Origin: Escherichia phage vB_EcoM_CRJP21
DNA: 64,000 nucleotides
Sequence record: OQ708376.1
Reading direction: 5' to 3' (one strand)
The stretch's first letter is position 1; every line of letters begins with the position of its first letter. A model generated the notes under the pieces. It was not told the DNA's origin. It did not search any database and saw only the letters and a list, made by a program, of their open reading frames with translations. Both the position numbers and the translations under genes were made by a program. Below are positions 10,754 through 46,621 of this stretch, one piece after another.

Positions 10754-10921
10754 CATATACAAGTGTAATGGTACTAAAAATGCCATTACACTCAATAAAT
10801 ACTCAATATAAATTAACACAAGGATTAAGTATGGCACAACAAATTTTCACAGATATCCACACTACCGGAGTTATTAAATTTCAAAATAATTTTTCTGGTG
10901 CTACTGGTGTAGACATTAAAA

Positions 10922-11458
10922 ATGATGGTTTTAACATTGTCAGTACTCGGATCTATTGATGGTGAAGATAGTTCTCTTAGTGATTCTGTGATTGCATCAT
11001 TCGGAACTAATAAAAACAGTTCTTTTATTATATCTGGATGGACTGGAATGACTGATTCTGAAAATAATGTTAAGATAAAAGCTAAAGCTACTAACGAGAA
11101 TCATGAAACAGAATGGGTAACATTATATGATAGTGCAAGTAATAAGTTATATAATGTATTAAGTTCTAATAATATTTTAATTAATCCACTGTCGGGCAAT
11201 GCTGTTTTTAATATTAATTTATCTGATAGAAATACTACTATTTCGATTGGTGCGGCTCCTACTGAAGTTTATTCAATTACCATCCTATTAACACAACAAA
11301 CAGGTTCAAACCTAGTTAATTGGGGTTCTAATGTTAAATGGTCATATAACAGACCAGTTGTTCTTTCTTATGAAATTGGTGAAAAAGATATTATTTCATT
11401 AGAAACATATGATAAAGGAGTTACATGGTACGGTGCATTAATTAGAGCAGGAGTATGA
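10922..11458 (+). CDS. hypothetical protein, start uncertain (possible frameshifted continuation of 10831-10959)
   Basis: 178-aa ORF overlapping a 42-aa ORF in another frame. Confidence 0.35.
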   Translation: MMVLTLSVLGSIDGEDSSLSDSVIASFGTNKNSSFIISGWTGMTDSENNVKIKAKATNENHETEWVTLYDSASNKLYNVLSSNNILINPLSGNAVFNINLSDRNTTISIGAAPTEVYSITILLTQQTGSNLVNWGSNVKWSYNRPVVLSYEIGEKDIISLETYDKGVTWYGALIRAGV

Positions 11459-11459
11459 T

Positions 11460-14249
11460 ATGTTAAACAATAATATTGATAATATTGTACAACTTCTTTA
11501 TGGGCATCACAAATTTATTGAAAGAAATACTGGTGATACAATAGACCCAACAGTACAACATTATGTGGTGAATAATCAGGGTGTTTTGGCGAACAACCGT
11601 CATTTTATTAACTATTCTGCAATGGAAGGTCAACCAAACGGTGACGGGACAACAGAAGGTCAAAGTCTATTAATTTTGGGATACATTTATGCGTATCTGG
11701 CAACAAATGATCCAATGTTTTTAGATAAAGCCAAATGGTACTGGGATGCATATCATCAGTACTTTTATGCTGGACGTGAATTACCAGACCCACCAACTCC
11801 ACTTCAATGTAACTGGATAGTTAATGCCAAAGAACCGATTTTGGCTAACTGGCCTTTAGCTGATGATGGATGGCCTACACATGGTGGTTTCAAGGGTGTA
11901 GAATTTACATTTACAAATGGACAATGTAAAATACCACATGGTGCACCTTATTATGGTCAGTTCTTGGATAAAGTAACATTCGCATTCAAAGGTGCTTTAG
12001 CATGGAACCAAATAAATGCGTCAGTAAAAGCATTACTACCAGATGGTAGTGTTGATTGGGATACCCCTGGTGATCAATATGATGTTGACTGGATTATTGA
12101 TTTCATGGGTAGAAAAATCGACTGGGATGGTAATATTTTAGCAGAAGGTTTTGACGAATCTGAAAAAGGAACGGTTCAATTAAAAAATACAACAATTAAT
12201 GGTGTATATAAATTAAATTTTGCTAATCGTCAACCAGTAGAATATGGTGGTGTGATAATTCAACGAAATGAAATGCAACACAACCGACCACTTCATGTTC
12301 CAATTGATTTGGAATTTGCGGATAATGCATCAGATGCAGAATTGTGGTTTAGTGATGCTTCTTATTTGTTATATAAAATAACAAAAGAAAGAAAACATTA
12401 TTTGGGTTGGAAATGTTCATTACTCACATGCTATGCTTATGGTGATATCGACTCCAGAGATAAATTTTTCAGACAAAGTACAATTGTAACCACACCATTC
12501 ACTGATGGTATTTCCTATGAATATTTTTATCCAAGTGATGCTATCGCTAAGTTTGGTAGAAATTCTTTAGGATATATTACTATCAGGCAAGACCAAAGTG
12601 CACAAAGTACAATGGAACAACAAGCTATTTGGTTCAGGGTCAATGCTGATTCTAAATTACTTGTAGATTATGGTGGTGTATGTGATGATGGTAAGCCGTT
12701 ATCATTTAAACCAGTACTGGAATTGTCTAAAACAAAAAATGATCATGATGTAGTAAGATATCGTTGTGGATTACCAGAAAGTAAAGACCAAAATATCACA
12801 CATTCATTAACACCTTTAAGTGCATTTGTTAGAGAAAAGAAAGCAGATGGTTCCCCTTATATAATTGCTGATAGTAGAATAGTTGTTCCTTATGGTGCAG
12901 CTACGTCCGAAATGATATATAGTACTGATATATTAGTTACACGCCGAGATACCATTAATCAGTTAGTTTGTGGTGAAGATGATGGTGCTGTTATTGGATT
13001 TTGGCTATTAGCAACAAATAAGTCTGAAGTTAAATCTTTTACATATCGTTCATATGAAGATGATTACAATATAAGAATTGTAGATGATAATGGTTGGAGA
13101 TGGTGGTGGATGATTCCTGCAACACACGGGGAATGGACTACAATCACACTAAGTTCCGATACATTACGTTTATCTGGGTATCAGCCAAATCATCCAAGTT
13201 CTGACCCAAGACCAGATGCACCAGTATATAGTGAGCTAGAAGATATTACTATTTTACCTGATACAACCCCAGTAGATGGTGTTGCTGCAATAATTGATTG
13301 GTATTGTATTAATGACATTCCAGAATTATATACGGATGCTGACGGTGATGACTATACTATGACATTTTCAATAACAATTGCAGGTGAATCACCATATACT
13401 GCACAGTTAGGGGATTGTGTAATCAAAGATTATTTGTTAAACTCATTGCATTACACACCAGGAACAATACCATTTTCTAACATCACTGACCCGTATGCGA
13501 ACCAGTACTCAGGTTGGCGTGGTTTACCGTATCCAGGTTATCAATATCCAGTGATATATTGTTTTAAAGACCAGCCAGTAGATAACACACGCTTAGGAAA
13601 CATGTTAAGCTTTATGAAAGATTCCCAAACATGGTTTACTCAACAATTCGGTACTGTTGGTCCGTGTGCACAAGCATATGTTTGGAACCGCTGGGATAAC
13701 TTAAAATATGGTGAACCAGATACATTTACTATGCTACATTGGGGTGATCAAGCATGGAGTGGGTATGAACCACGTGCGTTCTTTGGGGCTGCCAGAGCAT
13801 GGCAAGAACTCGCAGAGAGAGGAATTGAACCACCAGCAGATCTTGTTGAATTTTGTGAGAATTGGATTCACTTTTTAATTCAATTTCAAAAAGATAATGA
13901 TGGTCGTTCACCAACAATCTTCAATAAAGATGGCACAGTTGAAGGTCCAGATTGGGACTTTACAGGTCATATGTGTGGGTTGTGGTTAGCTGGGGCTTGT
14001 GCTGCTGGATTGGCTGGATGTAAAATAGAAGGTCTAACAACACTCGCTGATAACTTAGTTCTCGAACTTCAAAAGAATTATGTTATTGTAAATCCAGGTT
14101 CCCCAATGAATGGTTCATGGAGTCCAGCAGTTAGAGAAGGTACTGATAATGGTATGTTTTTTGGTTTCTGGGCAGGTGAGATTATGCGTGGATTGGGGTT
14201 ATACTCAATGTACCGTTTAAACACACCAAATCGTTTCCGTGATTTATAA
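11460..14249 (+). CDS. large hypothetical protein (929 aa)
   Basis: long uninterrupted ORF, Trp/Tyr-rich (WYWDAY, WRWWWM); no motif I can assign. Confidence 0.6.
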   Translation: MLNNNIDNIVQLLYGHHKFIERNTGDTIDPTVQHYVVNNQGVLANNRHFINYSAMEGQPNGDGTTEGQSLLILGYIYAYLATNDPMFLDKAKWYWDAYHQYFYAGRELPDPPTPLQCNWIVNAKEPILANWPLADDGWPTHGGFKGVEFTFTNGQCKIPHGAPYYGQFLDKVTFAFKGALAWNQINASVKALLPDGSVDWDTPGDQYDVDWIIDFMGRKIDWDGNILAEGFDESEKGTVQLKNTTINGVYKLNFANRQPVEYGGVIIQRNEMQHNRPLHVPIDLEFADNASDAELWFSDASYLLYKITKERKHYLGWKCSLLTCYAYGDIDSRDKFFRQSTIVTTPFTDGISYEYFYPSDAIAKFGRNSLGYITIRQDQSAQSTMEQQAIWFRVNADSKLLVDYGGVCDDGKPLSFKPVLELSKTKNDHDVVRYRCGLPESKDQNITHSLTPLSAFVREKKADGSPYIIADSRIVVPYGAATSEMIYSTDILVTRRDTINQLVCGEDDGAVIGFWLLATNKSEVKSFTYRSYEDDYNIRIVDDNGWRWWWMIPATHGEWTTITLSSDTLRLSGYQPNHPSSDPRPDAPVYSELEDITILPDTTPVDGVAAIIDWYCINDIPELYTDADGDDYTMTFSITIAGESPYTAQLGDCVIKDYLLNSLHYTPGTIPFSNITDPYANQYSGWRGLPYPGYQYPVIYCFKDQPVDNTRLGNMLSFMKDSQTWFTQQFGTVGPCAQAYVWNRWDNLKYGEPDTFTMLHWGDQAWSGYEPRAFFGAARAWQELAERGIEPPADLVEFCENWIHFLIQFQKDNDGRSPTIFNKDGTVEGPDWDFTGHMCGLWLAGACAAGLAGCKIEGLTTLADNLVLELQKNYVIVNPGSPMNGSWSPAVREGTDNGMFFGFWAGEIMRGLGLYSMYRLNTPNRFRDL

Positions 14250-14250
14250 C

Positions 14251-14279
14251 TTGACATAGAAAAAGTAATTATGTATAAT
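14251..14279 (+). promoter_or_regulatory. sigma70-type early promoter
   Basis: TTGACA, 17-nt spacer, TATAAT. Confidence 0.7.
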
Positions 14280-14280
14280 T

Positions 14281-14311
14281 AGAGAACTTCATATGGAGTT
14301 CTCTTTTTTTA
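14281..14311 (+). terminator. intrinsic terminator hairpin immediately downstream of the promoter
   Basis: agagaact-8 nt loop-agttctct plus 7 T. Confidence 0.6.
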
Positions 14312-14323
14312 TAAGGTGATAAA

Positions 14324-14743
14324 ATGTTAAATGAACGTATTAAAAATGCACTACATGTATTGAATCAAGAAGTCAATTCTATTCATAAAAGTACTGACCG
14401 TTATAAAGTAATGCATGAAATCAAACAAGAATTGGAATCTATTAATAAGGGAGAGTGGTGGTATCTTCAGCCCGAATATCAAACTCGTGAATTAAACGAT
14501 GTTGAAAAAGAAATTGTCAAATTCATCACTACTCGTTATTGTGATACATCAGAGAATGATGTATCAGCGAACTTCAATCTTACTAAATTGGAAGTCGAAG
14601 AAAAATTCCATTTTGATTGGCTTGATTGGATTGAAATGGTAATGGAACTAGAAGAAAAATTCAATGTTGAAGTTGATGAAAAGTTCGAGAATAATGAAAC
14701 TAAGCTGTATGAACTAGTAGAACATATTCAAAAAATGTTGTAA
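14324..14743 (+). CDS. ACP-like protein lacking the phosphopantetheine-attachment serine
   Basis: C-terminal DWLDWIEMVMELEEKFNVEVDEKF resembles ACP helix II [16 protein letters not shown] with Trp in place of Ser. Confidence 0.4.
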   Translation: MLNERIKNALHVLNQEVNSIHKSTDRYKVMHEIKQELESINKGEWWYLQPEYQTRELNDVEKEIVKFITTRYCDTSENDVSANFNLTKLEVEEKFHFDWLDWIEMVMELEEKFNVEVDEKFENNETKLYELVEHIQKML

Positions 14744-14796
14744 AACTATACAATTGTATACTCTAAATAATATCATCAACTATAGGAGATATTATT

Positions 14797-15171
14797 ATGA
14801 GTATGTTAGAAATAATTGTTTCAAAAATTCTTATTCCATTTTGGAAACCAATTTCTTTTGTATTATTAATTGGCGGTTCAGCTTATGCTGGTTGGGAAGC
14901 TAATACTTATTACAGTGGATATCAACAAAGCATAGAGCAACAAATAGCTAAAAAAGTTGATACCGCCTTGGATAAAATGCAACAAGAAAATGCAAAAAAT
15001 TACCTTGAAACTAAAAAAATCATGGAAGATAATGCTAAAGTTATTGAAACAAAGGTTCCTTTTATTGTAGAACGTGAAGTTTATAAGAATGTATGTTTAG
15101 ATGAAGATGGTGTAAAAGTACTGAATGAACTAAAACAAAATTCTCAAGCTGCGAGGAATAAATTCAAATGA
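14797..15171 (+). CDS. i-spanin candidate (inner-membrane spanin)
   Basis: N-terminal TM segment then charged helical region; ATGA-coupled to a downstream lipoprotein ORF. Confidence 0.5.
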   Translation: MSMLEIIVSKILIPFWKPISFVLLIGGSAYAGWEANTYYSGYQQSIEQQIAKKVDTALDKMQQENAKNYLETKKIMEDNAKVIETKVPFIVEREVYKNVCLDEDGVKVLNELKQNSQAARNKFK

Positions 15172-15476
15172 AAAAATTATTAGTTCCGTTTATTTCTTTT
15201 TTAATTATAAGTGGATGTGCAGAACAAGTAAAACTACAATCCCCTACACCAATTAAACAAGAAATTCTGTTAGAAAGATGTGATGATGATACACCTCTAC
15301 CACAAAAAATTATGATTGACAAAAATGGTTTTAAAGGTTATGATGGTGCAGAAATTCTTAAAGTACTTACTCGTTGGGATGCAGTATACAACGAATGTGC
15401 TTTAAAACATGATGCATTAATTAAAACTATTCGTGATTTACAAGGTAAAGATATTAAAATCAATATCAAGGAATAA
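15168..15476 (+). CDS. o-spanin candidate (outer-membrane lipoprotein)
   Basis: signal peptide with lipobox LIISGC. Confidence 0.5.
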   Translation: MKKLLVPFISFLIISGCAEQVKLQSPTPIKQEILLERCDDDTPLPQKIMIDKNGFKGYDGAEILKVLTRWDAVYNECALKHDALIKTIRDLQGKDIKINIKE

Positions 15477-15477
15477 A

Positions 15478-16089
15478 ATGAACAAATATCATGTTTACTA
15501 TACGACCAAATTATCACTTCTTGACGAATTAAATCAACGAAGTACTAAGATGAAACGCTACACTTTAAATGGTATTACTTTTCGATATTTCCCACAAAAA
15601 GTTCTTACATTTATTAAGAATCCAAAATGCGTGGCATGTGGGATTGAAGCTACTGAAGTACGCATTGAACGTTCATTATGTTCTGATCCAGTATATGGTA
15701 AACCACATTTAAATGTATATGCTGTATGTGGTCTTTATGAAGTTTTAATGACAGTTGACCATAATCATCTGGCATCTAAGGGTGGACCTGATTTAGAGTC
15801 AAACTTTAATACTATGTGCTCCAGATGTAATCAACTACGTTCGAATAAAACTGAAACAGTTGATGAGTTTCTTGAGAAAGTTAAAGGTCGTAATCTTCTC
15901 CAAGAACATATGAATAATTTCTTTAATGTACAAAAAAAGAAAAATAACATTGACAAGTCGAAACTACTAGAAGAACGTAGGTTACGTCAAGAATTATGGG
16001 AAACTGATCATCTATGGCATGTTCGAGAGTTTGGTCGTCATATGAAAGCATTGAAAAAAGAACAGAAGAAATTGAATAAACATGATTGA
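15478..16089 (+). CDS. HNH endonuclease
   Basis: CVACG ... VDHNHLASKGG ... CSRCN motif set; ATG at 15478 right after o-spanin stop. Confidence 0.6.
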   Translation: MNKYHVYYTTKLSLLDELNQRSTKMKRYTLNGITFRYFPQKVLTFIKNPKCVACGIEATEVRIERSLCSDPVYGKPHLNVYAVCGLYEVLMTVDHNHLASKGGPDLESNFNTMCSRCNQLRSNKTETVDEFLEKVKGRNLLQEHMNNFFNVQKKKNNIDKSKLLEERRLRQELWETDHLWHVREFGRHMKALKKEQKKLNKHD

Positions 16090-16102
16090 TATGATATTAT
16101 AG

Positions 16103-16131
16103 GGACTTGAGTATTCAAGTCCTTTTTTTTT
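16103..16131 (+). terminator. intrinsic terminator
   Basis: ggacttga-gtat-tcaagtcc plus 9 T. Confidence 0.75.
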
Positions 16132-16142
16132 GGAGAAAATAT

Positions 16143-16415
16143 ATGAAAACAAAATTATTTCCACAACAAATAATGATTGAACTGTGCGAACATCAGTCTG
16201 GTGAAGTTGTTACAATCAGTGGTGATACGTATTCCATCATTTTAAATGAACAACAATTTGATCATACAAACCATACGAATGAACTGTATAATCTTATGTT
16301 TATGGACGATAAGAGTGAAAAATACTATCATTGTACATATGAACGATGTATAGATACAACACCATTTTGTAATGAAATGGTTGGTGTTAAATGTTATGAA
16401 TGTGAAGTGTTATGA
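16143..16415 (+). CDS. small Cys-rich protein, tandem paralog 1
   Basis: MKTK...ELCEH...YYHCTYER...C..C shared with next ORF. Confidence 0.55.
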   Translation: MKTKLFPQQIMIELCEHQSGEVVTISGDTYSIILNEQQFDHTNHTNELYNLMFMDDKSEKYYHCTYERCIDTTPFCNEMVGVKCYECEVL

Positions 16416-16435
16416 AGTTTTTTAGGTAAAAATAT

Positions 16436-16792
16436 ATGAAAACAAAAATCTTTCTACCACAAACCATGATGGAACTGTGTGAACATGATGCAGGGGATGT
16501 TGTCACTATTAGTGGTTCCTGGAATGAGAGTACTGAAGACTTTATGCCAGATGAGGTATATTCTGTTGTTTTAAATGAACAGTACAATACAAGCCGTTGG
16601 AATGCACAGTACAATCTAGTTTTTCTTGACAATAACAATGAAAAGTACTATCATTGTACGTATGAACGAGGTCTGACAGAACGTAACTACACAACTCCTT
16701 TCTGTGATGAAATGGATGGTGTAAAGTGCTATGAAGTTTATGTTCGTCAGGTTCCAGTTGTTACTTACAAAACCGAGTGGGATTATCTGTAA
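16436..16792 (+). CDS. small Cys-rich protein, tandem paralog 2
   Basis: same N-terminus and Cys pattern as 16143-16415. Confidence 0.55.
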   Translation: MKTKIFLPQTMMELCEHDAGDVVTISGSWNESTEDFMPDEVYSVVLNEQYNTSRWNAQYNLVFLDNNNEKYYHCTYERGLTERNYTTPFCDEMDGVKCYEVYVRQVPVVTYKTEWDYL

Positions 16793-17190
16793 TGCTTAAA
16801 GATTTAGATTTTTCAAATTTAGAGATCATCAGTGCAGTGAAGAATATTACTGATATGGATGATGAAAAAGGTGTAATGGTAACTATCACTTTCGTAAAGG
16901 AAGAGGATAGCTATAAGCATCTTACTGGAATTGAAGAACTAATTCATAAAACCAATCTTGAGAATGATGGTAAACTCATCAAGCTTCAGGCTTCATATAC
17001 GCAAAAAACGTCAAATTTTATAGACCTAAATAATGTAGTCAAGGTGGTATACAATCATCCTGATCACACATATAGGAACACGACAAGAAATGAAAATGTT
17101 GCTAACGATTCGAATATTATCGAAGATGTTGAATTCATAAACACAATTTTTGATCGTTGTTCTAAGGATTTAAAAAAAGTATACATGTAA
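16792..17190 (+). CDS. hypothetical protein
   Basis: TAATG stop-start overlap with upstream gene. Confidence 0.5.
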   Translation: MLKDLDFSNLEIISAVKNITDMDDEKGVMVTITFVKEEDSYKHLTGIEELIHKTNLENDGKLIKLQASYTQKTSNFIDLNNVVKVVYNHPDHTYRNTTRNENVANDSNIIEDVEFINTIFDRCSKDLKKVYM

Positions 17191-43796: not shown

Positions 43797-45122
43797 ATGA
43801 CTACTCAAAACGATATCCTGAACGTTAAACTGACTCCAAAGAAAGCTAAAGAAGCAATGGCACTAGCTGACATGATTCAAGATAGCCTGATGATTTGGGG
43901 TAGCCCAGGTATCGGTAAGTCTGCAATCGCTCGTCAATACGCTGATGAAAATTACCCACTGCGTAAAGATAACGTAGCTAAAATCGAGTTCATGAAACAA
44001 CAAATCGAAGCTGACCCTGAAAATGCTGATCAGCTACGCCGTGAACTGGCTGCATTTGAAGCAAAACTAATCGACCAAGATACTAACTTTATCGATTTCC
44101 GTTTGTCTCAAATCGAACCAAGTGACCTTCGCGGTATTCCAGTACCAGAGAAGCTTTTCCGTAAAACTGACGGTTCTCTTCTGAAAGAATCTGAGCTTGC
44201 CGAAGCAAAAGATTATGTAGCTGAAACTGCGGTAGTATGGGCTGCACCTAAAGTTCTGAAATTGTCCGAAGATTGGAAAGGTGTTATTCTGTTTGACGAA
44301 ATTAACTCTGCAATGCCTATTGTTCAGGCAGCGTCTTATCAGCTAATCCTCGACCGTTGTGTTGGTGAGATGAAGCTACCTAAGACTGCACTGATTCTTG
44401 CAGCAGGTAACCGTGAAACTGATGGCGGTGTAACTTTCTCTCTTGCTACACCACTGCGTGACCGTATGACTCACATTGAGATGATTCCTTATCATCAAGA
44501 TTGGATTAACGATTATGCGATTGCAAAACGTTTGAACCCAGCAACTGTTGCGTTCATCAACAACACTGGTTCTAAGTACTTTAACACACTTAGTCCACAA
44601 GATCCTTCTCACAGTGGTGGTACTTCTCCACGTTCATGGGAAGCAGTAGCACGCTACGAAGATCTCAAGAAAACTAAGACAATTGATAAAGAAGTGTTCC
44701 GTGCAATGATTGCTGGTCGTGTTGGTGAAGGTGTTGCAACTGAATACATTGAGTACGTTGAGAACGTTGCTAAATTACCAGATACTATGTCTATTCTGTC
44801 TGGTGAAATCAAAGAAATCGACGCAACGCTGGATATTTCTGCGAACTACTTTATCACTCTGAACTTGGTTTATAAAATTATCGACCTGTTCAATGAGAAG
44901 CAAGAACAACGTCTACCAGTGGAAGAATGGGGTAAACTGTGTAACAACTTCATCACCTTCCTAGACCATAACTTCTCTGCAACTCAAGCAGAACTGGCAG
45001 TACTGGCAATTCGTACCATCACGCTTCATAAGGTTGCGATTTCCATTAAAGATGTACCAGCGTTTAAAGATTTCATCGCTAAGTACTCTGATCTTGTACG
45101 TAAAGCACGCTCTCTTGGCTAA
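43797..45122 (+). CDS. MoxR-type AAA+ ATPase
   Basis: Walker A GSPGIGKS, Walker B ILFDEINSA; paired with downstream VWA protein. Confidence 0.7.
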   Translation: MTTQNDILNVKLTPKKAKEAMALADMIQDSLMIWGSPGIGKSAIARQYADENYPLRKDNVAKIEFMKQQIEADPENADQLRRELAAFEAKLIDQDTNFIDFRLSQIEPSDLRGIPVPEKLFRKTDGSLLKESELAEAKDYVAETAVVWAAPKVLKLSEDWKGVILFDEINSAMPIVQAASYQLILDRCVGEMKLPKTALILAAGNRETDGGVTFSLATPLRDRMTHIEMIPYHQDWINDYAIAKRLNPATVAFINNTGSKYFNTLSPQDPSHSGGTSPRSWEAVARYEDLKKTKTIDKEVFRAMIAGRVGEGVATEYIEYVENVAKLPDTMSILSGEIKEIDATLDISANYFITLNLVYKIIDLFNEKQEQRLPVEEWGKLCNNFITFLDHNFSATQAELAVLAIRTITLHKVAISIKDVPAFKDFIAKYSDLVRKARSLG

Positions 45123-45142
45123 TTAACAAAGAGTTGTTGACA

Positions 45143-45174
45143 AGAAGGATGCCTAATGGTATCCTTCTTTTATC
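45143..45174 (+). terminator. hairpin / weak terminator
   Basis: agaaggat-10 nt loop-atccttct plus interrupted T-run. Confidence 0.35.
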
Positions 45175-45196
45175 TTAACTAAACGAGGAAATATAC

Positions 45197-46621
45197 ATGT
45201 CAGATAACAAATCTACTTCAAGATTCAATGAAGTATCTCCGGCACTCCAGAAAGAATGTCAAGAACGTCTGGTTCTGGCTCGTACATCTTTGATGTTAAC
45301 TGCACCATTCTTTGGTGTACTCGCTTCACGTTTACGTCCAGTTCCTAATAATACATGGTGTCGTACTCTAGCAGTGGATGGTAAACATCTATTCTACAAC
45401 GTAGAATTTGTAATGGGCATTCAAGACCCATCTAAAAAGAAAGAATATGAAGAAGCTATTCGTGAAAAGCACCCTGAAGTTACAGACGAACAATTAAAAG
45501 AAATGACTGAAGGTTTGACTGATGAAAACCTTGTTGCTGTAATTTGTCATGAAATTCTACACTGTGCTTACGATCACTTCCTTCGTCGTGGTATGCGTGA
45601 TCCACAACGTTATAACCGTGCAGCGGATTATGCCATTAACCAAATCATCGTTCGTGAGAAAATTGGGAAAATCCAAAGTTCATGGTTGTATGATAAAAAA
45701 TATGAAGGCATGACCGCAGAAGAGATTTACATTCTTCTTGAAGAAGAAGAACAAAAAGAAGATGGTGAAGGTGAAGGTCAACCACAAAGTGGCGGCGGTG
45801 AAGGTGAAGGTAAAAATCGCGGTACTTTTGGCGATATTAAAGATGGTAAGGGTAAACCAAAAGGTACTACCATTGACCAGCATGACGTTCCACAAGAAGG
45901 TCAAGAGGGTGGTTCAAGTGAACAGCAAAAACGTGATTACATGGATGATTTCAAAACAGCAATGATGAATGCTGCTCGTGCAGGTGGTACACCAGCAGAA
46001 ATCGCTCGTATGATTAACAACTTTAAAGAACCAAAGATTGACTGGCGTTCAAAACTTCAACGTACACTTCGTAGTTGGTTGAAGTCTGATGCAACATATC
46101 AAAATCCGAATCGTCGTTCTTGGGGTGCAGGTTTTGGTTCTAATGGCTCATTCTATGGTAATCCAATTTACCCAGGGATGAAACCAGATGATGATATTGA
46201 TATTGCGATTGCACTAGATGCTTCTGGGTCTATTTCTGAAGATATGCTTCGTGATTTCATTAGTGAAGTTCTTGGCATCACTAAACAATTCAAACAGTTT
46301 AAGATTCGTATCATGACTTTTGATACTGAAGTTTATACTGTAAAGGATTACAAAACTGGCGAAGAACGTAAGATTCTGGAATATCCAGTAAAAGGTGGTG
46401 GTGGTACTGACTTTGAAGCAGTATGGGTTCATATGAAGAACGACAACTACAAGCCTAAACAGCTTGTAATGTTTACTGATGGTGAACCGTGGCAGTCATG
46501 GGGTGATCCAAACTACTGTAAAACACTGTTCGTGATTCACAGTAACCCAAATAAAGTTGCACCATTTGGTGAGACTGTACACTACGAATATGAAGCTGAT
46601 AAAAAGCGTCAACGTAGTTAA
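45197..46621 (+). CDS. VWA-domain protein with N-terminal HExxH metallopeptidase-like domain
   Basis: HEILHCAYDH; MIDAS DASGS with downstream FDTEV and FTDGEP; Gly/Glu low-complexity linker. Confidence 0.7.
   Translation: MSDNKSTSRFNEVSPALQKECQERLVLARTSLMLTAPFFGVLASRLRPVPNNTWCRTLAVDGKHLFYNVEFVMGIQDPSKKKEYEEAIREKHPEVTDEQLKEMTEGLTDENLVAVICHEILHCAYDHFLRRGMRDPQRYNRAADYAINQIIVREKIGKIQSSWLYDKKYEGMTAEEIYILLEEEEQKEDGEGEGQPQSGGGEGEGKNRGTFGDIKDGKGKPKGTTIDQHDVPQEGQEGGSSEQQKRDYMDDFKTAMMNAARAGGTPAEIARMINNFKEPKIDWRSKLQRTLRSWLKSDATYQNPNRRSWGAGFGSNGSFYGNPIYPGMKPDDDIDIAIALDASGSISEDMLRDFISEVLGITKQFKQFKIRIMTFDTEVYTVKDYKTGEERKILEYPVKGGGGTDFEAVWVHMKNDNYKPKQLVMFTDGEPWQSWGDPNYCKTLFVIHSNPNKVAPFGETVHYEYEADKKRQRS

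What the first reader, a model, noticed from the sequence alone, without database searches (positions are those of the whole stretch)
14797..16089. Spanin pair with an HNH endonuclease immediately downstream
Seen: a TM-anchored protein and an ATGA-coupled lipoprotein (lipobox LIISGC) form a two-component spanin-like pair; the next gene, starting 2 nt after the lipoprotein stop, is an HNH nuclease. Inference: the HNH gene may be a free-standing homing endonuclease inserted next to the lysis genes, or a packaging-associated nuclease.
Basis: partly seen in the sequence, partly recalled or inferred. Interest (0 to 1): 0.35.

Follow-up and report, generated by a model that had tools for sequence, protein, structure and literature searches.

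The report
Spanin pair plus long-resident HNH nuclease
A giant E. coli phage carries an ordinary two-gene outer-membrane lysis pair followed by a small DNA-cutting (HNH) gene that has sat at that spot across several phage genera and is missing from others, so it is an old optional passenger, not a recent insertion or a packaging enzyme.

Summary
In this 121Q/PBECO4-type (Asteriusvirus) jumbo coliphage there is an i-spanin (14797-15171), an ATGA-overlapped lipoprotein o-spanin (15168-15476, lipobox IISGC) and a 203-aa HNH nuclease (15478-16089). The three genes, with an upstream ACP-like gene, form one unit bounded by two promoter-plus-terminator composites.

The same i-spanin/o-spanin/HNH order occurs in every Asteriusvirus record. 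It also occurs in Klebsiella RaK2/K64-1, Salmonella Munch, Erwinia Hallingskeid, Yersinia fHe-Yen9-04 and Xanthomonas XaC1, where the HNH is only 31-53% identical.

- HNH divergence tracks spanin divergence (Mantel r 0.93).
- dN/dS is 0.06-0.16 and the catalytic residues are invariant.
- The gene is cleanly absent at the same junction in Serratia BF, Erwinia pEa_SNUABM_47 and Kaldavass, GAP32, CBB, XbC2 and EJP2.

So this is an old, vertically inherited, dispensable free-standing HNH gene. I found no sign of recent mobility. It is not packaging-associated: no terminase lies nearby, it has extra domains, and relatives lack it. What it cuts is unknown. This is ordinary phage genome content of modest interest.

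The parts
14251..14279 (+). Sigma-70-type promoter-like site (TTGACA-17-TATAAT, 12/12), immediately upstream of the hairpin; left boundary of the unit
   Evidence: consensus scan; own scan. Sequence match only; activity not shown.
14281..14304 (+). Intrinsic-terminator-like hairpin plus T-run. Together with the promoter it forms a PeSL-like promoter/stem-loop composite
   Evidence: Composite type described for T4-type phages in PMC2839356 and PMC4122927.
14324..14743 (+). ACP-like gene, first gene of the unit. The phosphopantetheine-attachment Ser is replaced by Trp (FDWLD)
   Evidence: weak ACP matches, all below cut-offs; alignment. Syntenic in relatives.
14797..15171 (+). i-spanin (Rz-like): N-terminal membrane anchor, periplasmic remainder
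   Evidence: PHROG 1152 at E 6.6e-29; hydrophobic segment in all 18 orthologues; annotated i-spanin / Rz-like spanin in relatives.
15168..15476 (+). o-spanin (Rz1-like outer-membrane lipoprotein); start overlaps the i-spanin stop (ATGA)
   Evidence: Lipobox IISGC, Cys17, +2 Ala. Three Cys and four Pro in the mature part here; three Cys in 12 of the 13 orthologues with a reliable lipobox call. phrog_2425 at 3.2e-24. Pfam LysC 16.4 bits, below cut-off.
15478..16089 (+). HNH (beta-beta-alpha-Me) nuclease, 203 aa: basic N-terminal beta/alpha domain, CxxC...DH...N...CxxCN core, basic three-helix C-terminal domain
16072..16100 (+). Promoter-like site (TTGAAT-17-TATTAT, TG-extended) whose -35 box lies inside the last codons of the HNH gene
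   Evidence: The same arrangement occurs in Munch and Hallingskeid (TTGACA inside the HNH 3' end). In HNH-minus genomes the -35 box either directly follows the o-spanin stop or, in EJP2, lies inside the o-spanin 3' end.
16101..16131 (+). Terminator-like hairpin (AGGGACTTGAgtatTCAAGTCCTT) plus T-run. It is the right boundary of the unit and a recombination breakpoint relative to 121Q
   Evidence: single copy in the window; 98.6% identity to 121Q ends at about 16160.
16143..16415 (+). Context: extra 90-aa paralogue of the next gene, absent from all database relatives
   Evidence: phrog_6343 at 2e-5.
16436..16792 (+). Context: phrog_6343 gene (121Q gp514 position). Here it is the Turkey5-type allele: 97.5% aa identity to Turkey5, 54% to 121Q
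16792..17190 (+). Context: DUF7325 gene (121Q gp515 'structural protein'), the conserved right-hand neighbour of the junction in HNH-plus and HNH-minus genomes
   Evidence: Pfam DUF7325 at 1.9e-55; synteny.

Best explanation
The region is one transcription unit, ACP-like / i-spanin / o-spanin / HNH, set between two promoter-plus-hairpin composites. The spanin pair is a conventional Rz/Rz1-type two-component spanin. A type-II inner-membrane protein and an outer-membrane lipoprotein bridge the periplasm and disrupt the outer membrane as the last step of lysis. That function is inferred from family membership.

The HNH gene is an old, free-standing, catalytically intact beta-beta-alpha-Me nuclease gene. 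It sits exactly between the o-spanin stop codon and the downstream promoter/terminator element. It has been inherited vertically with the spanin module since before the RaK2-like genera split, and it was lost, or never gained, in some lineages. It is therefore dispensable for lysis, replication and packaging.

Its tight coupling (1-nt spacer, Shine-Dalgarno sequence inside the o-spanin gene, no promoter of its own) makes it a co-expressed passenger of the spanin operon, not a lysis component. The most likely activity, by inference only, is Mg2+-dependent nicking or cutting of DNA by the DH...N site, directed by the basic N- and C-terminal domains. The likely targets are genomes of co-infecting relatives, the homing or marker-exclusion behaviour known for T4 Seg/Mob enzymes. 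Such an activity would keep the gene and its linked module in the population.
For: Shown:
- Gene identities and the boundaries of the unit.
- The same gene order in 121Q, K64-1/RaK2, Munch, Hallingskeid, fHe-Yen9-04, XaC1 and the IMG/VR contigs L024-L027.
- HNH identity tracks spanin identity: Pearson 0.94, Mantel r 0.93 with p 1e-4.
- dN/dS is 0.06-0.16, below all three upstream neighbours (ACP-like, i-spanin, o-spanin) in 8 of 10 pairs and similar to DUF7325.
- The Zn-finger cysteines, D94-H95, N109 and N118 are invariant in 36 sequences.
- The model is confident and has an HNH fold close to Cas9 HNH domains and McrA.
- BF, pEa_SNUABM_47, GAP32, CBB, Kaldavass, XbC2, EJP2, L032 and L033 have a clean empty site: o-spanin stop, then the promoter-hairpin composite, then the next gene.
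- HNH-plus lineages include the most divergent ones (XaC1, the L018 contig). Ancestral presence with about 3 losses is therefore more parsimonious than at least 5 gains at one site.

Inferred: the spanin function, co-transcription, and what the nuclease cuts.
Against: - No cleavage site, target or phenotype is known, so the homing or marker-exclusion activity is an analogy.
- Strong purifying selection over this depth is unusual for a purely selfish gene and fits a phage-beneficial function equally well.
- No HNH-minus genome is close enough to an HNH-plus one to show a recent homing or loss event. The closest pair, fHe-Yen9-04 and BF, is 74-87% identical in the flanks.
- At the deepest level the co-divergence signal is weak: one taxon per lineage gives r 0.55, p 0.04, n = 6.
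- Promoters and terminators are consensus matches only.
Confidence: 0.6

Rival explanations
1. Domesticated nuclease with a phage-beneficial role, for example early degradation or nicking of host DNA for nucleotide supply or host shut-off, or attack on competing phages or plasmids. On this reading it is kept by selection on the phage, not by selfish drive.
For: dN/dS is 0.06-0.16, and within the genus the HNH is more conserved than the spanins or the ACP-like protein. It is fixed in every Asteriusvirus and Alcyoneusvirus record. It sits behind a perfect sigma-70 promoter, which suggests early expression by host RNA polymerase. Its 3' end has co-evolved to carry the next promoter's -35 box.
Against: It is absent from BF, GAP32, CBB, Kaldavass, XbC2 and EJP2, which share the lifestyle and host types. 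No match to defence or anti-defence models beyond the bare HNH core. No functional data.
Confidence: 0.3
2. Recently inserted, currently mobile homing endonuclease gene.
For: Intergenic position between conserved genes and a presence/absence polymorphism at exactly one site. Other HNH genes in Asteriusvirus genomes do differ between close relatives: fEgEco12 Gp520 and Gp570 are absent from Ecwhy_1 (PMC13070987). Recombination breakpoints abut the gene.
Against: Present in 35 of 35 close records with conserved synteny. Co-diverges with its flanks. Strong purifying selection. Scans for an empty site of the Asteriusvirus type returned only chance hits. The breakpoints sit at the promoter/hairpin element, a known kind of recombination site (PMC2839356), so they need no nuclease.
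Confidence: 0.05
3. Packaging-associated HNH that assists terminase (the kind cited from Kala et al. 2014), placed after the lysis genes as in small cos phages.
Against: No terminase or portal gene lies within about -15/+35 kb. In XaC1 the HNH is ORF228 and the terminases are ORF353/354 (PMC11273794). The protein is 203 aa with two extra domains. Sister phages of the same group lack the gene. CBB appears to have long terminal repeats, not cos ends (PMC5259590).
Confidence: 0.04
4. T4 endonuclease VII-like junction resolvase that debranches DNA before packaging.
For: Weak PHROG hit to an 'endonuclease VII' family (E 9e-4). A CxxC...DH...CxxCN layout and a helical C-terminal domain resemble the T4 gp49 layout as I recall it.
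Confidence: 0.02

Closest known systems
Two-component spanins of the Rz/Rz1 type (lambda Rz/Rz1; T4 PseT.3/PseT.2)
   Same: An N-terminally anchored inner-membrane protein followed by a small outer-membrane lipoprotein with a lipobox and periplasmic cysteines. The two genes are adjacent and translationally coupled. The i-spanin falls in the Rz-like PHROG. As I recall for T4, the spanins lie apart from the endolysin; here the endolysin homologue is 121Q gp532, about 8.5 kb downstream.
   Different: The genes overlap by only 4 nt (ATGA) instead of being embedded. The mature o-spanin is long (86 aa). The o-spanin matches Pfam LysC only below threshold. No lysis experiment exists for this group.
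Free-standing HNH homing endonucleases of T4-type phages (Mob family; RB49 ORF040, named in PMC2839356)
   Same: A small HNH gene in an intergenic slot between conserved genes, without its own promoter, optional among related genomes, next to promoter/stem-loop cassettes.
   Different: It is fixed and co-diverging across whole genera, under strong purifying selection, with no evidence of horizontal movement. No sequence relationship beyond the HNH core. Cleavage of an HNH-less allele is untested.
HNH domains of Cas9/IscB and EcoKMcrA
   Different: The similarity covers only the ~70-90-residue catalytic core. The N-terminal beta/alpha domain, the insertion carrying invariant H77/N79/Y81, and the three-helix C-terminal domain have no counterpart. 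There is no guide RNA or modification-reading domain.
PeSL promoter/stem-loop cassettes of T4-type phages (Arbiol et al. 2010; Comeau et al. 2014)
   Same: A strong sigma-70-like promoter joined to a terminator-like stem-loop between ORFs, located at module boundaries where related genomes switch similarity.
   Different: Only two such composites were found in 64 kb and they are not sequence repeats of each other. The HNH indel has such an element on its right side only.

Membership tests
Two-component spanin (Rz/Rz1 type) | i-spanin with a single N-terminal transmembrane segment | tested here: met
   Hydrophobic 17-mer (maximum Kyte-Doolittle score 1.3-2.8) within the first ~35 residues in all 18 orthologues.
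Two-component spanin (Rz/Rz1 type) | o-spanin with a lipoprotein signal, a lipobox Cys and no inner-membrane retention residue | tested here: met
   MKKLLVPFISFLIISGC, +2 Ala. A lipobox Cys is present in all orthologues by inspection.
Two-component spanin (Rz/Rz1 type) | Adjacent or overlapping gene pair, i-spanin first | tested here: met
   ATGA overlap at 15168-15171; the same order in all relatives.
Two-component spanin (Rz/Rz1 type) | Sequence membership in a curated spanin family | tested here: inconclusive
   The i-spanin matches PHROG 1152 'Rz-like spanin' at 6.6e-29. The o-spanin matches only an unnamed PHROG (2425), and Pfam LysC at 16.4 bits, below the 27-bit cut-off.
Two-component spanin (Rz/Rz1 type) | Helical or coiled-coil periplasmic domain of the i-spanin, and C-terminal contact with the o-spanin | not tested
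   No structure prediction was run for the spanins.
Two-component spanin (Rz/Rz1 type) | Required for outer-membrane disruption at lysis | not testable with these tools
   Needs genetics.
HNH / beta-beta-alpha-Me nuclease superfamily | Match to the Pfam HNH model above the gathering score | tested here: met
   PF01844, 26.0 bits against 21.4.
HNH / beta-beta-alpha-Me nuclease superfamily | Catalytic His, structural Asn and metal-ligand His/Asn conserved, with four zinc cysteines | tested here: met
   D94 H95 N109 N118 and C51 C54 C114 C117 are invariant in 36 sequences.
HNH / beta-beta-alpha-Me nuclease superfamily | beta-beta-alpha fold | tested here: met
Free-standing homing endonuclease gene | Intergenic location between genes conserved in relatives | tested here: met
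   It lies between the o-spanin stop and the promoter/hairpin preceding the next gene.
Free-standing homing endonuclease gene | Sporadic presence or absence among closely related genomes | tested here: not met
   Present in all 35 close records. Absences occur only between lineages whose spanins are at most 64% identical. Empty-site scans were negative.
Free-standing homing endonuclease gene | Phylogeny incongruent with the carrier genome (horizontal transfer) | tested here: not met
   Mantel r 0.93, p 1e-4 against the flanking spanins. Only local markers were used, not a core-genome tree.
Free-standing homing endonuclease gene | Cleaves the endonuclease-lacking allele near the insertion site and is copied into it | not testable with these tools
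   Needs cleavage assays and mixed infections.
Packaging-associated phage HNH (the kind cited from Kala et al. 2014) | Gene adjacent to terminase or portal genes | tested here: not met
   None within about -15/+35 kb in the E9.1 annotation. In XaC1, ORF228 versus ORF353/354.
Packaging-associated phage HNH (the kind cited from Kala et al. 2014) | Retained by all relatives that use the same packaging machinery | tested here: not met
   Absent in BF, GAP32, CBB, XbC2, Kaldavass and EJP2.
T4 endonuclease VII family | Match to Pfam Endonuclease_7, or a fold match to gp49 | tested here: not met
PeSL regulatory cassette | Sigma-70 promoter joined to a stem-loop terminator in an intergenic region | tested here: met
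   14251-14304 and 16072-16131. Homologous composites occur in 17 relatives.
PeSL regulatory cassette | Many similar copies per genome that recombine with each other | tested here: inconclusive
   Only two were found in 64 kb and they are not alike in sequence. Similarity breakpoints do coincide with the right-hand one.

The most novel reading that the evidence does not exclude
The HNH is not a mere passenger but a domesticated partner of the ACP/spanin module. On this reading it is a nuclease that biases inheritance of the linked module in mixed infections (marker exclusion), or that acts on DNA in step with lysis. That would explain why it has stayed translationally coupled to the o-spanin, under strong constraint, across at least five genera.
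Probability: 0.12. Interest if true: 0.5.

Novelty: new member of a known kind. Interest (0 to 1): 0.2.

Why it matters
The practical value is mostly in annotation.

- It settles that these jumbo coliphages have a complete two-component spanin. Several GenBank records and one paper name only one half.
- It shows that the adjacent 'HNH endonuclease' should not be read as a packaging factor or a recent mobile insertion.
- The clean filled-site/empty-site series across RaK2-like phages gives a ready experimental system: an HNH-plus protein tested against HNH-minus junction DNA. This would ask whether a long-resident free-standing HNH gene still homes or has been domesticated.

Nothing here challenges current understanding.

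Tried and rejected
- Profile search against PDB sequences. Only marginal hits were found: 4H9D at E 0.076 and an unrelated ACP synthase.
- Search for an Asteriusvirus-type empty site. I used the pattern AAGGAATAA-N(0-30)-GGGACTTGAG in viral and metagenome contigs. It gave 122 loci, none of which encodes a spanin, HNH, phrog_6343 or DUF7325 relative, so all are chance hits.
- Defence-system and NCBIfam libraries. Only core-HNH similarities appeared: IscB, and a type IV restriction enzyme at E 0.0076.
- The other 'HNH endonuclease' annotated in a relative. I tested the window gene at that position (45197-46621) as a possible paralogue. It has no HNH domain and no similarity.
- The 14-bp palindrome TATACAATTGTATA (14747-14760) between the ACP-like gene and the i-spanin. 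It is found only in the closest relatives, and matches to it at up to 2 mismatches are no more frequent in the window than in shuffled sequence.
- Whether the conserved clade-II hairpin is a dispersed repeat. It is single-copy per locus.
- Not done: a core-genome phylogeny, structure prediction of the spanins, and the large representative-protein search.

Full report
**What the window is.** The region 14300-16175 is 98% identical in nucleotides to Escherichia phages 121Q, PBECO4, phAPEC6 and about 20 other Asteriusvirus jumbo phages (~350 kb). It is 66-78% identical to more distant members and to Klebsiella phages RaK2 and K64-1.

**The observation.** The three ORFs are exactly as described.
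- The i-spanin (14797-15171, 124 aa) has an N-terminal hydrophobic segment and matches PHROG 1152 'Rz-like spanin' at E 6.6e-29.
- The o-spanin (15168-15476, 102 aa) starts at the ATG of an ATGA that overlaps the i-spanin stop. It begins MKKLLVPFISFLIISGC, a standard lipobox with Ala at +2.
- In 12 of the 13 orthologues where the lipobox was called reliably, the mature part carries three Cys (four in Turkey5), with four or five Pro.
- The HNH gene starts at ATG 15478, one base after the o-spanin stop, with an AAGGA ribosome-binding site inside the o-spanin's last codons. The longer ORF from GTG 15433 is rejected because all orthologues start at the ATG.
- Pfam HNH is above its cut-off (26.0 against 21.4 bits).

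**The unit.**
- A perfect sigma-70 consensus (TTGACA-17-TATAAT, 14251-14279) abuts a terminator-like hairpin (14281-14304) just upstream of an ACP-like gene (14324-14743).
- A second promoter-plus-hairpin composite (16072-16131) follows the HNH stop, with its -35 box inside the last HNH codons.
- My own scan found nine hairpin-plus-T-run sites in the 64 kb. Only these two have a promoter directly attached.
- They resemble the PeSL promoter/stem-loop cassettes described for T4-type phages (PMC2839356, PMC4122927).
- I therefore read ACP-like / i-spanin / o-spanin / HNH as one operon. This is inferred from sequence, not shown.

**The nuclease.**
- An alignment of 36 family members keeps C51, C54, C114 and C117 (a four-cysteine zinc site), D94-H95, N109 and N118, plus H77 and G103.
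- This is the D-H...N...N arrangement that I recall from the Cas9 HNH active site (D839/H840/N863).
- AlphaFold2 on that alignment gives pLDDT 92.5. The model has an N-terminal beta/alpha domain (1-48, pI 10.1), a beta-beta-alpha core, and three long helices (128-203, pI 9.8).
- A profile search of PDB sequences and the NCBIfam and PADLOC libraries add only core-HNH similarity.

**Is it a recent insertion?** No. The order i-spanin / o-spanin / HNH is annotated or detectable in:
- 121Q;
- K64-1 and RaK2 (HNH 53% identical to the window's in my global alignments, 50-51% by tblastn);
- Salmonella phage Munch (40%);
- Erwinia phage Hallingskeid (41%);
- Yersinia phage fHe-Yen9-04 (34%);
- Xanthomonas phage XaC1 (31%);
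- four IMG/VR contigs.

All 35 records whose i-spanin is at least 60% identical also carry the HNH. Two copies look damaged: SD-1_S14 is truncated and CMSTMSU is fragmented, possibly through assembly errors.

Pairwise HNH identity tracks mean spanin identity:
- Pearson 0.94 over 55 pairs;
- Mantel r 0.93, p 1e-4 over 10 taxa;
- one taxon per deep lineage gives r 0.55, p 0.04, which is weak.

Within the genus, dN/dS of the HNH is 0.06-0.16. That is below the ACP-like, i-spanin and o-spanin values in 8 of 10 pairs and similar to DUF7325; many dS values are saturated, and the cleanest pair, window against ph0011, gives dS 0.45 and omega 0.12.

**Is it universal?** No.
- At the same junction the gene is absent in Serratia BF, Erwinia pEa_SNUABM_47, Cronobacter GAP32, Pectobacterium CBB, Erwinia Kaldavass, Xanthomonas XbC2, E. 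coli EJP2 and two IMG/VR contigs.
- The empty site is clean. The o-spanin stop is followed directly by the promoter-hairpin composite, a ribosome-binding site and the next gene (DUF7325 in the Clade II phages; a phrog_6343 gene in EJP2), 55-77 nt in all. In the filled site the HNH ORF occupies exactly the gap between the o-spanin stop and that element.
- fHe-Yen9-04 (HNH-plus) and BF (HNH-minus) are in the same genus, and Hallingskeid and EJP2 are a second such contrast.
- The most divergent lineages are HNH-plus: XaC1, and the metagenomic contig L018, where an intact HNH and a degenerate tandem paralogue precede DUF7325. HNH-minus genomes form one tight clade plus EJP2.
- Ancestral presence with about three losses is therefore more parsimonious than five or more gains at one site. 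This rests on local markers only.

**Recombination at the junction.**
- The window is 98.6% identical to 121Q up to about 16160, just past the HNH terminator.
- It then carries a Turkey5-type allele of the next gene (97.5% aa identity to Turkey5, 54% to 121Q). It also carries an extra 90-aa paralogue found in no database phage.
- fHe-Yen9-04 against BF shows 74.5% identity on the left and 86.7% on the right of the same junction.
- Promoter/stem-loop cassettes are documented recombination sites. These breakpoints therefore need no nuclease, and they suggest that the ACP-spanin(-HNH) block is exchanged as a module.

**Packaging role.**
- No terminase or portal gene is annotated within about 15 kb upstream or 35 kb downstream in the well-annotated relative E9.1.
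- In XaC1 the HNH is ORF228 and the terminases are ORF353/354.
- CBB has its own endonuclease VII homologue and apparently long terminal repeats.
- HNH-minus relatives belong to the same phage group.
- I give this reading about 4%.

**Verdict.** The spanin pair is ordinary and correctly recognised. The HNH is a catalytically intact nuclease of the Cas9/McrA-like HNH type, in an uncharacterised jumbo-phage subfamily (phrog_23285). It is a long-resident, vertically inherited, dispensable free-standing gene tucked into the 3' end of the spanin operon. Whether it still acts selfishly (homing or marker exclusion, my preferred guess) or has been domesticated cannot be decided from sequence. The literature held here does not mention the spanin-HNH linkage or its presence/absence pattern. 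The finding is a modest refinement of annotation, not a surprise.

Noticed in passing
window 16143-16792: Directly after the HNH terminator the window has two tandem phrog_6343 genes where every database relative has one. The first is a 90-aa copy found in no other phage record. The second is a 118-aa copy that is 97.5% identical to phage Turkey5 but 54% identical to 121Q, although the genes upstream are 98-100% 121Q-like. This is a local mosaic or duplication with its breakpoint at about 16160-16418.
   Followed up: partly
window 14324-14743: The ACP-like protein has Trp in place of the phosphopantetheine-attachment Ser (FDWLD instead of DSLD). 121Q and Turkey3 also have Trp, Turkey5 has Asn and K64-1 has Thr. 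ph0011, A4, Munch, fHe-Yen9-04 and all HNH-minus relatives in the alignment keep Ser. In this phage it is probably not a functional carrier protein.
   Followed up: partly
window ~10900-14304 (tail-fibre genes; the 929-aa ORF is 11460-14249): The tail-fibre cassette between the nucleotidyltransferase and the ACP-like gene is an indel within the genus. It is present here and in 121Q, A4, Turkey5 and E9.1, and absent in Turkey3 and ph0011. ph0011 keeps a vestige of the fibre gene's last codons (CAGTGATTTATAT) just before the promoter/hairpin, which suggests deletion there.
   Followed up: partly
window 43797-46621: An AAA-type ATPase (43797-45122) is followed by a 474-aa protein with DUF2201 metallopeptidase-like and VWA-like domains. 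The latter is annotated 'HNH endonuclease' in relative E9.1, but it has no HNH domain and no similarity to the spanin-adjacent HNH, so that label is probably a mis-annotation.
   Followed up: partly
L006:3160-3181, L007:3166-3187, L008:3170-3191, L012:3169-3190, L013:3148-3169 (BF, GAP32, CBB, Kaldavass, XbC2): The terminator hairpin after the o-spanin (AAGGAAATC-GTGA-GRTTTCCTT) is nearly invariant in nucleotide sequence across these genera, although the flanking proteins are only 50-80% identical. It is single-copy per locus. This is more conservation than a terminator needs. It could be a regulatory site or a nuclease target.
   Followed up: partly
L018:996-2536 (ENA metagenome contig k99_828): A distant relative has two tandem HNH-family genes upstream of DUF7325. 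The first has lost the D-H and Asn catalytic residues and the second is intact. No spanin lies directly upstream. The HNH-DUF7325 adjacency therefore survives where the spanin adjacency does not.
   Followed up: partly
L010 (Erwinia phage pEa_SNUABM_47) 2456-3129: The paper on these Eneladusvirus phages states that no i-spanin could be found (PMC7760394). The gene annotated 'putative membrane protein' directly upstream of their o-spanin is 43% identical to this window's i-spanin (global alignment; 41.6% over 81% of the query by tblastn). The pair is therefore complete.
   Followed up: yes
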